The notes under the pieces were generated by a model. The model saw only the letters and a list, made by a program, of their open reading frames with translations. It made no database searches and was not told the DNA's origin. 64,000 nucleotides of DNA from NCBI RefSeq assembly GCF_009914755.1, contig NC_060926.1; one strand, written 5' to 3'. Of this stretch, positions 24,700 to 44,124 are shown piece after piece. The translations under genes and the position numbers were made by a program. Source of the DNA: the human T2T-CHM13v2.0 reference genome, Homo sapiens. Numbering within the stretch: position 1 is the first letter of the stretch; each line of letters begins with the position of its first letter.

Positions 24700-26792
24700 A
24701 TGACAGGATCAAATTCACACATAACGATATTAACCTTAAATGTAAACGGGCTAACTGCCCCAATTAAAAGACACAGACTGGCGAATTGGACAAAGAGTCA
24801 AGACCCATCAGTGTGCTGTATTCAGGAGACCCATCTCACATGCAGAGACACACATAGGCTCAAAATAAAGGGATGGAGAAAGATCTACCAAGCAAATGGA
24901 AAACAAAAAAAAAGGCAGAGGTTGCAATCCTAGTCTCTGATAAAACAGACTTTAAACCAACAAAGATCAAAAGAGACAAAGAAGGCCATTACATAAGGGT
25001 AAAGGGATCAATTCAACAAGAAGAGTTAACTATCCTAAATATGTATGCACCCAATACAGGAGCACCCAGATTCATAAAGCAAGTCCTTAGAGACCCACAA
25101 AGAGACTTAAACTCCCGCACAATGATAATGGGAGACTTTAACACCCCACTGTCAATATCAGACAGATCGAGACAGAAGGTTAACAAGGATATCCAGGACT
25201 AGAACTCAGCTTTGCACCAAGCAGACCTAATAGACAACTACAGAACTCTCCACCACAAATCAACAGAATATACATTCTTCTCAGCACCACATTGCACTTA
25301 TTCTAAAATTGACCACATAGTTGGAAGTAAAGCACTCCTCAGCAAATGTAAAAGAACAGAAATCACAACAAACTGTCTCTCAGACCACAGTGCAATCAAA
25401 CTAGAACTCAGGATTAAGAAATTCACTCAAAACCGCTCAACTACATGGAAACTGAACAACCTGCTCCTGAATGACTACTGGGTACATAACGATTTTGAAA
25501 CTAACGAGAACAAAGATACAACATACCAGAATCTCTGGGACACATTCAAAGCAGTATGTAGAGGGAAATTTATAGCACTAAATGCCCACGAGAGAAAGCA
25601 TGAAAGATCTAAAATTGACACCCTAACATCACAATTAAAGGAACTAGAGAAGCAAGAGCAAACACATTCAAAAGCTAGCAGAAGGCAAGAAATAACTAAG
25701 ATCACAGCAGAACTGAAGGAAATGGAGACACAAAAAACCCTTCAAAAAATCAATGAATCCAGGAGCTGGTTTTTTGAAAAGATCAACAAAATTGATAGAC
25801 TGCTAGCAAGACTAATAAGGAAGAAAAGAGAGAAGAATCAAATAGATGCAATAAAAAATGATAAAGGGGATGTCACCACCAATCCCACAGAAATACAAAC
25901 TACCATCAGAGAATACTATAAACACCTCTATGCAAATCAACTAGAAAATCTAGAAGAAATGGATAAATTTCTGGACACATACACCCTCCCAAGACTAAAC
26001 CAGGAAGAAGTTGAATCTCTGAACAGGCCAATGACAGGCTCTGAAATTTGAGGCAATAATTAATAGCCTACCAACCAAAAGAAGTCCAGGACCAGACGGA
26101 TTCACAGCCGAATTCTACCAGAGGTACAAGGAGGAGCTGGTACCATTCCTTCTGAAACTATGCCAATCAATAGAAAAAGAGGGAATCCTCCCTAACTCAT
26201 TTTATGAGGCCAGCATCATCCTGATACCAAAGCCTGGCAGAGACACAACAAAAAAAGAGAATTTTAGGCCAATATCCCTAATGAACATTGATGCAAATAT
26301 CCTCAATAAAATACTGGCAAACCGAATCCAGCAGCACATCAAAAAGCTTATCCACCATGATCAAGTGGGCTTCATCCCTGGGATGCAAGGCTGGTTCAAC
26401 ATACGCAAATCAATAAACGTAATCCAGCATATAAACAGAACCAACGACAAAAAGCACATGATCATCTCAATAGATGCAGAAAAGGCCTTTGACAAAATTC
26501 AACAACCTTCATGCTAAAAACTCTCAATAAATTAGGTATTGATGAGACGTATCTCAAAATAATAACAGCTATCTATGACAAACCCACAGCCAATATCATA
26601 CTGAATGGGCAAAAACTGGAAGCATTCCCTTTGAAAACTGGCACAAGACAGGGATGCCCTCTTTCACCACTCCTATTCAACATAGTGTTGGAAGTTCTGG
26701 CCAGGGCAATCAGGAAGGAGAAGGAAATAAAGGGTATTCAATTAGGAAAAGAGGAAGTCAAATTGTCCCTGTTTGCGGATGACATGAATGTA
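24700..26792 (+). pseudogene. L1 ORF2p (EN + N-terminal RT), disrupted and truncated
   Basis: [58 protein letters not shown]. Frameshifts near 24910 and 26049, stop at 25200-25202. Confidence 0.95.
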
Positions 26793-26872
26793 TAGCTGTA
26801 GGTTTTTGAAGATGTTGTCAAGCTGAGGGAGTTCCCCTCTATTCTATTTTTGTGAGAGCTTTATATTTTTTA
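26793..26872 (-). mobile_element. Old L1M ORF2 piece whose continuation lies at 44126 (+)
   Basis: Reverse complement aaagctctcacaaaaatagaatagaggggaactccctcagcttgacaacatcttcaaaaacctacagcta is collinear in L1 ORF2 with acctacagctaagatttatattgaatag at 44126. Confidence 0.85.
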
Positions 26873-27122
26873 AAGTAACAACAATTCTACACATCTCTTC
26901 CAGAAAATAGAAGTGGAGAAAATATTTCCTAATTCACTTTATGAAGCTTGTTTTACACCAAAACCAGACAGAGAGTACACACACAAATAAACAAAAAACT
27001 GTAAACCAATATCTCTCATGATACAAATTTAAAAAAATCCTTAACAAGGTTATTAGCAAACAAGATTCAGAAATAGCTTGATTCTTTTAAATTATGCACT
27101 ATAAATAAGTGGGGTTTATACA
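26873..27122 (+). mobile_element. Old L1M ORF2 piece (inverted 5' arm of the same old L1M)
   Basis: aattctacacatctcttccagaaaatagaag..aaccaatatctctcatg..aagtggggtttata. Confidence 0.75.
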
Positions 27123-42800: not shown

Positions 42801-43300
42801 CAATTTTGTTGATCTTAAAAAAAATCTCCTGGATTCATCGATTTTTTGAAGGTTTTTTTGTGTCTCTATTCCTATCAGTTCTGCTGTGATCTTAGTTATT
42901 TCTTGCCTTCTGCTAGCTTTTGAATGTGTTTCCTGTTGCTTCTCTAGTTCTTTTAATTGTGATGTTAGGGTGTCAATTTTAGATCTTTCCTGCTTTCTCT
43001 TGTGGGCATTTAGTGCTATAAATTTCCCTCTACACACTGCTTTAAATGTGTCCCAGAGATTCTGGTACGTTGTGTCTTTGTTCTCAATAAATAAAGAACA
43101 ACTTTATTTCTGCCTTCATTTTGTTATTTACCCAGTGGTCATTCAGGAGCAAGTTGTTCAGTTTCCATGTAGTTGTGCAGTTTTGTGTGAGTTTCTTAAT
43201 CCTGAGTTATAATTTTATTGCACTGCGGTCTGACAGACAGTTTGTTGTGATTTCTGTTCTTTTACATTTGCTGAGGAGTGCTTTACTTCCAACTATGTGG
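39874..43300 (-). mobile_element. L1PA6/7-type 3' half (EN end to poly(A)), minus strand
   Basis: Poly(T) ~39864-39888; ORF2 peptides in ORFs 40556-40954, 41246-41665, 41850-42314 and 42789-43037; ends at aactatgtgg (43300). Confidence 0.95.
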
Positions 43301-44124
43301 TGAAGGATATGAACAGACACTTCTCAAAAGAAGACATTTATGCAGCCAACAGACACATGAAAAAATGGTCATCGTCACTGGCCATCAGAGAAATGCAAAT
43401 CAAAACCACAATGTGATAACATCTCACACCAGTTAGAATGGCGATGATTAAAAAGTCAGGAAACAACGGGTGCTGGAGAGGATGTGGAGAAATAGGAACA
43501 CTTTTACACTGTTGGTGGGACTGTGAAGTAGTTCAACCATTATGGAAGTCAGTGTGGCGATTCCTCAGGGATCTAGAACTAGAATTAACATTTGACCCAG
43601 CCATCCCATTACTGGGTATATACCCAAAGGATTATAAATCATGCTGCTATAAAGACACATGCACACATATGTTTATTGCGGCACTATTCACAATATCAAA
43701 GACTTGGAACCAACCCAAATGTCCAACAATGATAGACTGGATTAAGAAAATGTGGCACATATACACCATGGAATACTATGCAGCCATAAAAAATGATGAG
43801 TTAATGTCCTTTGTAGGGTCATGGATGAAGCTGGAAACCATCATTCTCAGCAAACTATCGCAAGGACAAAAAACCAAAGACCGCATGTTCTCACTCATGG
43901 GTGGGAATTGAACAATGAGAACACATGGACACAGGAAGGGGAACAACACACACTGGGGCCTTTTGTGGGGTGGGGGGCAGGGGGGAGGGATAGCATTAGG
44001 AGATATACCTAATGCTAAATGACGAATTAATGGGTGCAGAACACCAATATGGCACATGTATACACATGTAACAAACCTGCACGTTGCGCACATGTACCCT
44101 AAAACTTAAAGTATAATTAAAAAA
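43301..44124 (+). mobile_element. L1PA4/5-type 3' end (non-inverted arm of a twin-primed insertion)
   Basis: ORF2 C-terminus (ORF 43438-43911, CWWDC..RMFSL); 3'UTR aatgctaaatgacga; short A tail; TSD acctacagcta at 44126-44136. Confidence 0.93.

What the first reader, a model, noticed from the sequence alone, without database searches (positions are those of the whole stretch)
25312..43301. Gene-conversion tracts between the two inverted L1 arms (possible recurrent inversion)
The arms overlap over ~1.5 kb (25312-26792 vs rc 41803-43301) and otherwise differ every few tens of bases, yet contain three perfectly identical tracts. (a) 67 bp, 25312-25378 = rc 43235-43301, at the inferred crossover. 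(b) 57 bp, 25660-25716 = rc 42875-42931, sharing gatcACagc so both read EITKITAEL instead of the usual EITKIRAEL. (c) 82 bp, 25992-26073 = rc 42522-42603, sharing gaaCagGccaatGac and the same 1-bp frameshifting insertion gaaatTtgagg. Two independent insertions from different subfamilies should not share a frameshift plus several private substitutions. Inference: the arms have paired repeatedly after insertion, as expected for inversions that toggle between orientations.
Basis: partly seen in the sequence, partly recalled or inferred. Interest (0 to 1): 0.75.

Follow-up and report, generated by a model that had tools for sequence, protein, structure and literature searches.

The report
L1-mediated 18-kb inversion with conversion patch
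Two oppositely oriented LINE-1 copies in a SCHLAP1 intron recombined once, flipping about 18 kb between them and leaving a short copied patch; this is a known kind of primate genome rearrangement, and there is no sign that it flips back and forth.

Summary
The arms (25312-26792 vs rc 41803-43301) are about 91-93% identical, and the 67-, 57- and 82-bp identical tracts sit exactly where stated. Two more long runs were missed: 26574-26655 (82 bp) and 26368-26424 (57 bp).

The locus is a fossil L1-L1 inversion of about 18 kb (25312-43301).
- Arm A is a chimera. An older full-length L1 runs from 22579 to about 25366-25378. A younger L1 fragment, "Y", continues to 26792.
- Arm B (39889-43301) is the rest of the older L1.
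- Y and the L1 3' piece at 43302-44124 are the two halves of one 5'-inverted (twin-primed) insertion into an old L1M.
- Target-site duplications match across the arms, not within them.

By tract:
- **Tract (c)** is a real non-reciprocal B-to-A conversion patch (26024-26097). Its +T word occurs only twice in the whole genome.
- **Tract (a)** sits at the recombination junction and is old-type in both arms.
- **Tract (b)** is not supported: its variant word occurs in 59 other places.

Only one type switch is visible, so repeated toggling has no support here. It is a new member of a known kind.

The parts
22564..22578 (+). Left target-site duplication of the older L1 (TSD1), AAAAAGAAAATTGTC, immediately before the L1 5' end
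   Evidence: It matches rc of 39859-39873 at 13 of 15 positions, with an 11-nt exact core. 39 of 3000 random window pairs reach that local score. The sequence is low-complexity, so this is moderate evidence.
22579..25378 (+). 5' part of the older full-length L1 ('L1old'): 5' UTR start, ORF1 and ORF2 up to about residue 230-250. It includes tract (a), 25312-25378.
   Evidence: The 5' UTR start is read directly. Private-substitution density is 66/1190 = 5.55% over 24062-25311. Typing gives old-type at 10 of 12 independent diagnostic sites, plus old-type at 25364 and 25366. The best genome-wide identity is 92%.
25367..25400 (.). Interval holding the old-to-young switch in arm A (the recombination junction). 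It is most likely 25367-25378, because A lacks B's private variants from 25379 onward.
25379..26792 (+). Younger L1 fragment 'Y' (ORF2 about residues 250-700). It ends inside the reverse-transcriptase FADD motif and was originally the inverted 5' segment of a twin-primed insertion.
   Evidence: Private density over the whole overlap 25312-26792 is 34/1480 = 2.3%. It is young-type at 14 of 16 sites from 25401 on. The best genome-wide identity is 95-96%.
26024..26097 (+). Old-type conversion patch inside Y (minimum extent; maximum 25992-26129). It carries C26024, G26027, G26033, the +T at 26047, and old-type C26068 and C26097. The +T shifts the ORF2 frame in both arms.
   Evidence: Three A/B differences lie inside the patch: 26074, 26081 and 26090.
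26793..26807 (-). Left target-site duplication of the younger L1 (TSD2), now on the minus strand: rc = AAAAACCTACAGCTA
   Evidence: It matches 44122-44136 at 14 of 15 positions, exactly abutting the end of Y. 8 of 3000 random pairs reach that score.
26793..26894 (-). Left half of the old L1M that the younger L1 inserted into, now inverted
   Evidence: Its rc maps to A-equivalent L1 coordinates 26517-26590 (48/68 identical; 5 of 300 shuffles reach the score).
26808..39858 (.). Inverted single-copy and old-repeat spacer between the two L1 insertions
   Evidence: Inferred from the two TSD pairs. It contains old L1M pieces and Alus.
39859..39873 (-). Right target-site duplication of the older L1 (TSD1), rc = AAAAAGAAAATCATC
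39874..39888 (-). A-rich tail of the older L1
39889..43301 (-). Arm B: the 3' part of the older L1 (ORF2 about residue 230 to the 3' end). It includes the counterparts of tracts (a) 43235-43301, (b) 42875-42931 and (c) 42522-42603.
   Evidence: Private density is 76/1498 in the overlap and 64/1496 beyond it. It is old-type at 24 of 28 sites. The best genome-wide identity is 91-93%.
43302..44124 (+). Sense 3' piece of the younger L1 (ORF2 about residue 1094 to the 3' end, plus a 6-A tail at 44119-44124)
   Evidence: The best genome-wide identity is 95%, against 91-92% for the homologous stretch of arm B.
44122..44136 (+). Right target-site duplication of the younger L1 (TSD2), AAATACCTACAGCTA
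44126..45383 (+). Right half of the old L1M target element
   Evidence: It starts at A-equivalent coordinate 26582, overlapping the left half by 11 nt, which is the TSD.

Best explanation
The locus is the product of one L1-L1 homologous exchange that inverted about 18 kb (25312-43301).

Step 1 (shown). An older full-length L1 inserted in + orientation at 22579. Its two ends now lie 17 kb apart and in opposite orientation: 22579 to about 25378, and 39889-43301 on the minus strand.

Step 2 (shown). A younger L1 inserted about 13 kb downstream into an old L1M. It had a 5'-inverted, twin-primed structure. The inverted segment Y covered ORF2 about residues 250-700. The sense 3' piece covered about residue 1094 to the poly-A.

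Step 3 (the exchange is shown; its mechanism and date are inferred). Y lay in the opposite orientation to the older L1. The two paired and exchanged at the inner end of Y. This joined the older L1's 5' part seamlessly to Y, giving present arm A. It flipped the older L1's 3' part so that it now abuts the younger L1's 3' piece, giving present arm B.

Step 4 (the non-reciprocity is shown; the cause is inferred). Heteroduplex repair copied old-L1 sequence into the young fragment without a reciprocal change. This happened over 25312-25378 at the junction, where both arms are now old-type, and over 26024-26097. It occurred either during that exchange or later.

In this preferred version the insertion and the exchange were separate events, i.e. 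classical non-allelic homologous recombination.
For: 1. **Arm A is a chimera.** Private-substitution density against one 26-copy panel is 66/1190 (5.55%) left of 25312 and 34/1480 (2.3%) right of it (Fisher P=1.3e-5). Arm B shows 76/1498 and 64/1496, which does not differ from A's left part (P=0.24).

2. **Subfamily typing agrees.** Arm A reads OOOOOOYYOOOOOO then YYYYY-OO-YYYYYYYYY. Arm B is O at 24 of 28 sites. At sites outside the overlap, which played no part in defining the groups, A's left part is O at 10 of 12 and B's distal part is O at 8 of 10. Fisher P=3e-4.

3. **Best genome-wide identities fall into two age classes.** The older class: A left part 92%, B overlap 92-93%, B distal 93%, B 3' end 91-92%. 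The younger class: A overlap 95-96% and the 43302-44124 piece 95%.

4. **TSDs pair across the arms.** rc(26793-26807) matches 44122-44136 at 14 of 15, exactly at the end of Y and just after the piece's tail. 22564-22578 matches rc(39859-39873) at 13 of 15. No TSD is seen within either present arm (read by eye).

5. **The old L1M target becomes contiguous only when 25312-43301 is flipped back.** Its left half ends at about L1-equivalent coordinate 26592. Its right half starts at 26582.

6. **The exchange was homologous and coordinate-exact.** A's old part stops where B begins.

7. **Patch (c) is real transfer.** Four rare shared variants lie within 24 bp (present in 0-4 of 61 panel copies). The +T words occur twice in the genome. 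Two flanking old-type diagnostic states are also shared. Clustering has P=2.9e-4.

8. **The mechanism class is documented.** Lee et al. 2008 (PMC2603318; abstract and passages read) report 21 L1 recombination-mediated inversions between human and chimpanzee. They used the same TSD logic to identify the ancestral state.
Against: 1. The junction lies in the last 67 bp of 1481 bp of homology. That has a prior of about 0.045 if crossovers fall uniformly. Lee et al. report no hotspot along L1.

2. The right arm shows no young-type segment. A simple reciprocal crossover predicts Y-type states at 43247 and 43249, but both are old-type. An added conversion step is therefore needed.

3. The two halves of the younger L1 leave about 1.18 kb of L1 unrepresented (ORF2 about residues 700-1094). 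As I recall the twin-priming literature, the gap or overlap is usually small. I did not check this in a paper.

4. TSD1 is A-rich and low-complexity, so it is only moderately specific (39 of 3000 random pairs).

5. The panels were chosen by similarity to arm A or B, and the O and Y groups were defined from overlap sites. Typing inside the overlap is therefore partly circular. Only the sites outside it are independent.

6. No outgroup or second haplotype was available, so the un-inverted state was never observed directly.
Confidence: 0.55

Rival explanations
1. One-step, integration-coupled inversion. The younger L1's retrotransposition itself made the inversion. The target break in the old L1M gave two untethered ends. 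The primary end was extended from the poly-A and became the 3' piece. The reciprocal end was extended by twin priming and became Y. These ends were not joined to each other. Y's cDNA 3' end annealed to, or invaded, the homologous stretch of the nearby older L1. The primary end was joined to the other side of a break in that older L1. The 67-bp old-type sequence on both arms would be synthesis or fill-in at that break. Patch (c) would be mismatch repair of the cDNA/old-L1 heteroduplex.
For: - The junction sits exactly at the free 3' end of Y's cDNA. This model expects that, whereas uniform NAHR gives it a prior of 0.045.
- Both arms are old-type in the 67 bp next to the junction.
- The 1.18-kb gap between the two cDNAs suggests they were never tethered.
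- The number of A/B differences inside the patches is compatible with their dating from Y's insertion: 3 observed against 6.5 expected, P=0.11.
- Preprint 10.1101/2024.12.14.628481 (abstract and passages read) reports L1-induced intrachromosomal inversions. It also reports a case in which the two twin-primed cDNA ends were ligated to distal breaks.
Against: - Those reported events are somatic or experimental. The authors attribute them to end-joining without homology and argue explicitly against recombination with pre-existing L1s. Here the left junction is coordinate-exact within L1.
- The model needs a simultaneous second break in the older L1.
- Tract (a) has 0 differences where 3.1 are expected if it is as old as Y (P=0.046).
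- I saw no clear endonuclease target motif at 25311/25312 or 25378/25379 (read by eye).
Confidence: 0.28
2. One reading: the arms have paired many times, and the interval toggles between orientations. Tracts (a), (b) and (c) are separate gene-conversion events that record this.
For: - There is an excess of long identical runs: 5 of 57 bp or more against 1.4 expected, P=0.0046.
- Two patches with old-type markers lie about 650 bp apart in arm A.
- Polymorphic inversions flanked by L1 pairs are known, 22 in the Porubsky et al. preprint (10.1101/2021.12.20.472354; passages read).
Against: - Only one old-to-young switch exists in arm A and none in arm B. Extra crossovers would leave reciprocal young-type blocks in B, and these are absent.
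- Tract (b) has no private marker.
- The three marker-free runs cannot be assigned to any event.
- The arms are short (1.5 kb) and 91-93% identical, with no identical stretch longer than 82 bp. In the preprint, L1 pairs flanking inversions have a median identity of 97.2%, and recurrence is enriched for longer repeats.
- All patches can be dated to one event.
Confidence: 0.07
3. A single L1 plus a staggered-break inversion. On this view arms A and B in the overlap are inverted duplicates of one element. The shared frameshift and substitutions would simply predate the duplication.
For: - The outer ends of the two arms share a TSD.
- The arms are complementary in L1 coordinates, which is what first suggested this model.
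- The private variants are shared.
Against: - Duplicates must be the same age, yet private substitutions are 34 against 76 (binomial P=7.7e-5).
- The arms differ at 12-14 subfamily-diagnostic sites.
- A-overlap has its own TSD partner at 44122-44136.
- Four of the six rare shared sites lie within 24 bp rather than being spread evenly (P=2.9e-4).
Confidence: 0.02
4. No exchange at all: two unrelated L1 fragments whose identical runs and shared variants are chance, subfamily states or an assembly artefact.
For: - The longest run by itself is unremarkable (P=0.13-0.20).
- Tract (b)'s variant recurs in 59 other copies.
- About 0.6 coincident private substitutions are expected by chance.
Against: - The +T and its neighbours are unique to the two arms in 3.1 Gb.
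- Arm A is a chimera with coordinate-exact continuity.
- TSDs pair across the arms.
- The identical stretches are 82 bp or shorter inside arms that differ at 110 places, which is not what a collapsed assembly looks like.
Confidence: 0.02

Closest known systems
Retrotransposon recombination-mediated inversion, L1-RMI (Lee, Han, Meyer, Kim & Batzer 2008, PMC2603318; abstract and passages read)
   Same: Two L1s in opposite orientation span the two breakpoints. The recombined element is a chimera of the front of one and the back of the other. TSDs no longer match within an element but do match across elements. The size is typical: the paper gives an average of 14.3 kb for human-specific L1-RMI.
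   Different: Here the state was reconstructed from one genome only, with no chimpanzee comparison. The partner repeat is the inverted 5' segment of a twin-primed L1, not a whole element. The exchange sits at the very end of homology. The reciprocal chimera is not visible in the right arm.
Polymorphic human inversions flanked by inverted L1 pairs, and 'inversion toggling' (Porubsky et al. preprint 10.1101/2021.12.20.472354; abstract and passages read)
   Same: It is a balanced inversion bounded by inverted L1 sequence, with at least one breakpoint in a truncated element. In the preprint this holds for 19 of 31 mobile-element cases.
   Different: Their L1 pairs have a median identity of 97.2%, and recurrence goes with long repeats. 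These arms are 1.5 kb long and 91-93% identical. No polymorphism or recurrence data exist here. Their Table S2 could not be consulted.
Twin-priming 5'-inverted L1 insertion (Ostertag & Kazazian 2001; recalled, and as described in the passages)
   Same: After flipping 25312-43301 back, the younger L1 reads as follows: TSD, inverted internal segment, sense 3' segment with poly-A, TSD.
   Different: About 1.18 kb of L1 is missing between the two segments. The inverted segment, about 1.4-1.5 kb, is at the long end of the range. The preprint gives a median of 666 bp, with 88% shorter than 1.5 kb.
L1-induced rearrangements from untethered TPRT ends (preprint 10.1101/2024.12.14.628481; abstract and passages read)
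   Same: The primary, poly-A-bearing cDNA end and the twin-primed reciprocal cDNA end are found at two different junctions of an intrachromosomal inversion.
   Different: Those cases are somatic or experimental and are joined without homology. Here the event is germline and old, and one junction is a homologous join inside a pre-existing L1.
Ectopic (interlocus) gene conversion between dispersed repeats
   Same: A short tract of 74-138 bp was transferred non-reciprocally. The donor was the more diverged copy, and the tract is flanked by unconverted sequence.
   Different: It cannot be separated in time from the crossover that made the inversion. It may be patchy mismatch repair from that same event.

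Membership tests
L1 recombination-mediated inversion (RRMI/L1-RMI) | Same-family elements in opposite orientation spanning both breakpoints | tested here: met
   25312-26792 (+) against 41803-43301 (-)
L1 recombination-mediated inversion (RRMI/L1-RMI) | Breakpoint elements are chimeras (front of one, back of the other) | tested here: inconclusive
   The left arm is clearly chimeric. The right arm shows no young-type segment: it is old-type at 43249 and 43247, the only two markers between the junction and its end.
L1 recombination-mediated inversion (RRMI/L1-RMI) | TSDs mismatch within each present element but match across the two elements | tested here: met
   14/15 for the younger L1 and 13/15 for the older L1. 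The within-arm flanks show no match (read by eye).
L1 recombination-mediated inversion (RRMI/L1-RMI) | An un-inverted orthologous or allelic state exists | not testable with these tools
   Only the window's own genome is held.
Interlocus gene conversion tract | Derived variants shared only by the two copies, confined to a short tract with divergent flanks, and non-reciprocal | tested here: met
   Tract (c). Tract (b) does not meet this. Tract (a) shares old-type states but no private variant.
Twin-primed (5'-inverted) L1 insertion | An inverted internal segment plus a sense poly-A-bearing 3' segment, within one TSD pair | tested here: met
   after conceptually flipping 25312-43301 back
Twin-primed (5'-inverted) L1 insertion | The two segments are adjacent in L1 coordinates (small gap or overlap) | tested here: not met
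   The inverted segment ends at about ORF2 residue 700. The sense segment starts at about residue 1094, leaving a gap of about 1.18 kb. That the gap is usually small is recalled, not checked.
Recurrent ('toggling') inversion | Long, high-identity inverted repeats at the boundaries | tested here: not met
   1.5 kb, 91-93% identity, longest identical stretch 82 bp.
Recurrent ('toggling') inversion | More than one crossover recorded as reciprocal type switches in both arms | tested here: not met
   One switch in arm A and none in arm B. The patches are non-reciprocal.
Recurrent ('toggling') inversion | Orientation incongruent with the flanking haplotype or species tree | not testable with these tools
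   No other haplotypes or species are held.

The most novel reading that the evidence does not exclude
The inversion was made in a single step by the retrotransposition of the younger L1. Its two cDNA-tipped break ends were captured by the two sides of a break in the neighbouring older L1, with one capture guided by L1-L1 homology. If so, this is a fixed germline fossil of the L1-induced inversions so far described in tumours and induced cell clones. The conversion patches would be mismatch repair of a cDNA/genomic-L1 heteroduplex.
Probability: 0.28. Interest if true: 0.6.

Novelty: new member of a known kind. Interest (0 to 1): 0.35.

Why it matters
- **A full history from one genome.** Private-mutation density, subfamily typing, TSD pairing and a split older repeat together recover four events without an outgroup: two insertions, one inversion and one conversion patch.
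- **Twin priming plants an inverted L1 segment.** That segment can later serve as the partner for an inversion with a neighbouring L1.
- **The junction raises a testable question.** It sits at the free end of the twin-primed fragment. Ape T2T assemblies could decide whether some evolutionary 'L1-recombination' inversions were in fact made during integration.
- **No functional consequence is evident.** The interval lies in a SCHLAP1 intron with no exon in the window, according to the annotation supplied with the finding.

Tried and rejected
- **Single-L1, staggered-break model (my first idea).** Rejected on unequal ages, diagnostic-site differences and A-overlap's own TSD partner.
- **Arm B plus 43302-44124 as one twin-primed L1.** Rejected. 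They overlap in L1 coordinates at only 88% identity and belong to different age classes. Arm B also has its own tail.
- **A TSD for arm B in its present flanks.** About 7 of 13 matches by eye, so none found.
- **26793+ and 43302+ as pieces of one old L1.** Rejected. 26793+ is a 60-70% identical L1M, whereas 43302+ is a young L1PA-type 3' end.
- **My first reading of 26895-27119 as antisense.** This was wrong. blastn shows it is sense.
- **Endonuclease target motifs at the older L1's break.** Nothing convincing by eye.
- **Literature on a germline inversion in SCHLAP1.** The search 'SCHLAP1' + 'inversion' found 16 papers. All 10 that were listed concern cancer or are otherwise unrelated to a germline inversion, judged from titles and abstract openings.
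- Loci for the B-selected hits could not be cut out, so only 8 short B-selected copies were fetched instead.
- **Subfamily names.** Names such as L1PA4-8 were not assigned, because no reference consensus is held and I built none.
- **Rows dropped.** Three panel loci (L016, L026, L037) were dropped from the alignment because their matches spanned more than 1700 bp. L037 and L051 were dropped from the panel.

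
Full report
**Observation**

The window is human chr2 (T2T-CHM13), inside a SCHLAP1 intron. An inverted L1 pair is present exactly as described. Coordinates 25309/25312-26794 pair with 41801-43304. Identity is 91.1% over 1509 gapped columns and 93-94% in ungapped blocks. The pairwise alignment and run list confirm the identical tracts at 25312-25378 (67 bp), 25660-25716 (57 bp) and 25992-26073 (82 bp).

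With 110 difference events, the longest run alone is ordinary (P=0.13 uniform; P=0.20 with per-site variability taken from 61 other L1 copies). Five runs of 57 bp or more are too many, however: null means are 1.06 and 1.40, with 0 of 2000 simulations and P=0.0046 respectively. A 67-bp run exactly at the homology edge is also unlikely (P=0.0045 uniform; 0.009 weighted).

**Are the shared variants private?**

The whole genome could be searched.
- The 36-mer carrying G26027, G26033 and the +T at 26047 occurs exactly twice in 3.1 Gb, both times in these two arms.
- The 22-mer with the +T alone also occurs exactly twice.
- In a panel of 61 other L1 copies (aligned), the four tract-(c) variants are carried by 4, 0, 4 and 0 copies.
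- By contrast, the 31-mer carrying the ACA codon of tract (b) occurs 61 times, 59 of them elsewhere. About 0.6 coincident identical private substitutions are expected by chance. Tract (b) therefore carries no real evidence.
- Tract (a) has no private variant. Its two non-majority states, C25364 and C25366, are carried by 9 of 50 panel copies.

**What the arms are**

My first alternative was that both arms are duplicates of one L1, made by a staggered-break inversion. That model fails.

Against one 26-copy panel, private-substitution densities are as follows:

| Segment | Private substitutions | Density |
|---|---|---|
| Arm A left of the overlap (24062-25311) | 66/1190 | 5.55% |
| A-overlap (25312-26792) | 34/1480 | 2.3% |
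| B-overlap | 76/1498 | 5.07% |
| B beyond the overlap | 64/1496 | 4.28% |

- A-left against A-overlap gives P=1.3e-5.
- A-overlap against B-overlap gives P=5.8e-5.
- A-left against all of B gives P=0.24.

Best genome-wide identities show the same two classes. The older class is 92% (A-left), 92-93% (B-overlap), 93% (B distal) and 91-92% (B 3' end). The younger class is 95-96% (A-overlap) and 95% (the + strand L1 3' piece at 43302-44124).

Panel copies sort into a gradient from an A-like ('Y', young) haplotype to a B-like ('O', old) haplotype. Typing both arms at sites that separate 25 Y-group from 9 O-group copies gives these strings:
- Arm A: OOOOOOYYOOOOOO | YYYYY OO YYYYYYYYY
- Arm B: O at 24 of 28 sites

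The groups were defined from overlap sites, so the independent evidence comes from sites outside the overlap. There A-left is O at 10 of 12 sites and B-distal is O at 8 of 10. Arm A therefore switches from an old to a young element between 25366 and 25401. The switch is most likely before 25379, because A lacks B's private variants from 25379 onward.

**Reconstruction**

Arm A begins with a bona fide L1 5' UTR start at 22579. It is cut off at 26792 inside the reverse-transcriptase active-site motif. Arm B has an A-rich tail at 39874-39888 and ends at 43301. There it abuts, head to head, a + strand L1 3' piece that starts at about ORF2 residue 1094.

Target-site duplications pair across the arms:
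- The 15 nt right of Y, read on the minus strand (26793-26807, AAAAACCTACAGCTA), match the 15 nt after the 3' piece's tail (44122-44136, AAATACCTACAGCTA) at 14 of 15. 8 of 3000 random pairs score as high.
- The 15 nt before the older L1's 5' end (22564-22578) match rc of 39859-39873, just past arm B's tail, at 13 of 15. This pair is low-complexity: 39 of 3000 random pairs score as high.

Both copies of the first TSD lie in one old L1M.
- Its left half, read as rc(26793-26894), ends at about L1-equivalent coordinate 26592.
- Its right half (44126 onward) starts at 26582.
- The element is therefore contiguous, with an 11-nt duplication, only if 25312-43301 is flipped back.

The ancestral order was therefore: full-length older L1 (+), about 13 kb of spacer, then a younger L1 inserted into an old L1M with a 5'-inverted (twin-primed) structure. 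One exchange between the older L1 and the inverted young segment, at the young segment's inner end, produces exactly what is seen today.

**The tracts in this light**

- **Tract (a)** lies at the junction and is old-type in both arms. A plain reciprocal crossover would leave young-type sequence at the end of the right arm. Either crossover-associated conversion or synthesis from the older L1 is therefore needed.
- **Tract (c)** is part of an old-type island in the young fragment. It contains four rare variants within 24 bp (clustering P=2.9e-4) plus old-type C26068 and C26097. Its minimum extent is 26024-26097 and its maximum is 25992-26129.
  - Arm B stays old-type there, so the transfer was non-reciprocal.
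  - The direction was B to A. The old-type diagnostic states show this. In addition, four private variants in 24 bp are about 14 times more probable on B's mutation density than on A's (0.035 against 0.0025).
  - Three differences inside the island (26074, 26081, 26090) show that it is not very recent, or that it is patchy.
- **Tract (b) and the two unlisted runs** have no markers. They add to the excess of long runs but cannot be assigned to any event.

**One event or many; one step or two**

Extra crossovers, which is what toggling means, would leave reciprocal young-type blocks in arm B. None is seen.

The patches are compatible with a single event as old as the young L1: 3 differences observed against 6.5 expected, P=0.11. 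Tract (a) alone, with 0 against 3.1 expected (P=0.046), hints at something later.

The arms are short and 91-93% identical, with at most 82 identical bases in a row. Passages of the Porubsky et al. preprint give a median identity of 97.2% for L1 pairs that flank human inversions, and tie recurrence to longer repeats. Toggling is therefore unsupported here, although it remains untested against other haplotypes.

Two mechanisms fit the core structure.

1. **Classical two-step L1 recombination-mediated inversion.** Lee et al. 2008 catalogued 21 such L1 events between human and chimpanzee, using the same TSD logic (abstract and passages read).
2. **A one-step event during integration of the younger L1.** The junction at the free end of the twin-primed fragment favours this (prior 0.045 under uniform NAHR). 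So do the old-type 67 bp on both sides and the 1.18-kb gap between the two cDNA-derived pieces. It also resembles the untethered twin-primed ends reported in preprint 10.1101/2024.12.14.628481 (abstract and passages read). Against it, those authors attribute their events to end-joining and argue against homology with resident L1s.

I put the two-step model at about 0.55 and the one-step model at about 0.28. The shared core is that an inversion occurred, the arms are independent elements, and tract (c) is a conversion. I hold that core at roughly 0.85-0.9.

**Limits**

- No outgroup or second haplotype was available.
- Subfamily names were not assigned, because no reference consensus is held and I built none, only per-site counts.
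- The panels were chosen by similarity to the arms.
- Supplementary inversion tables could not be opened. I therefore cannot say whether this locus is already listed.
- A search for 'SCHLAP1' + 'inversion' found 16 papers. All 10 that were listed concern cancer or are otherwise unrelated to a germline inversion, judged from titles and abstract openings.

**Verdict**

This is a real and well-resolved example of a known kind of rearrangement. Its gene-conversion reading is right for tract (c), right in spirit for tract (a), wrong for tract (b), and unsupported for repeated toggling.

Noticed in passing
window 24812-25061 and 41552-41801: Two pockets inside the older L1 have low private-substitution density (6/248 and 4/250, against about 5% elsewhere). 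Each contains two adjacent young-type diagnostic sites: 24903/24914 and 41697/41638. Neither stretch has a young homologue in this locus. They may mean that the older L1's lineage is intermediate between my O and Y groups, or they may be conversion from L1s elsewhere. Significance is weak after allowing for the number of bins.
   Followed up: partly
window 26795-27119: The old L1M that was hit by the younger L1 appears to be 5'-inverted itself. 26793-26894 is antisense (L1-equivalent coordinates 26517-26590), and 26895-27119 is sense (L1-equivalent 26158-26375, 148/210 identical).
   Followed up: partly
window 25492 (arm A) and about 42826 (arm B): Arm A has a private deletion of about 24 bp relative to arm B and to all 50 panel copies that cover the site. 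Arm B has a private 4-bp deletion and a cluster of changes at 42817-42826.
   Followed up: no
window 3714-4510 and 63694-64000: There are further L1 fragments. One is a minus-strand L1 3' end, 82% identical to arm B's 3' end. The other is a minus-strand ORF2 fragment at the window's right edge, 84-86% identical to both arms.
   Followed up: no
window 19686-19970, 21899-22222, 29701-29984, 32810-33096, 52659-52963, 53693-53992, 60100-60430: A family of repeats about 300 bp long, 74-82% identical to each other and Alu-like in size and copy number. One of them lies just upstream of the older L1's 5' end.
   Followed up: no
window 44119-44124: The younger L1's 3' piece has only a 6-A tail before its TSD. 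The older L1 keeps a tail of about 15 nt interrupted by G's.
   Followed up: no
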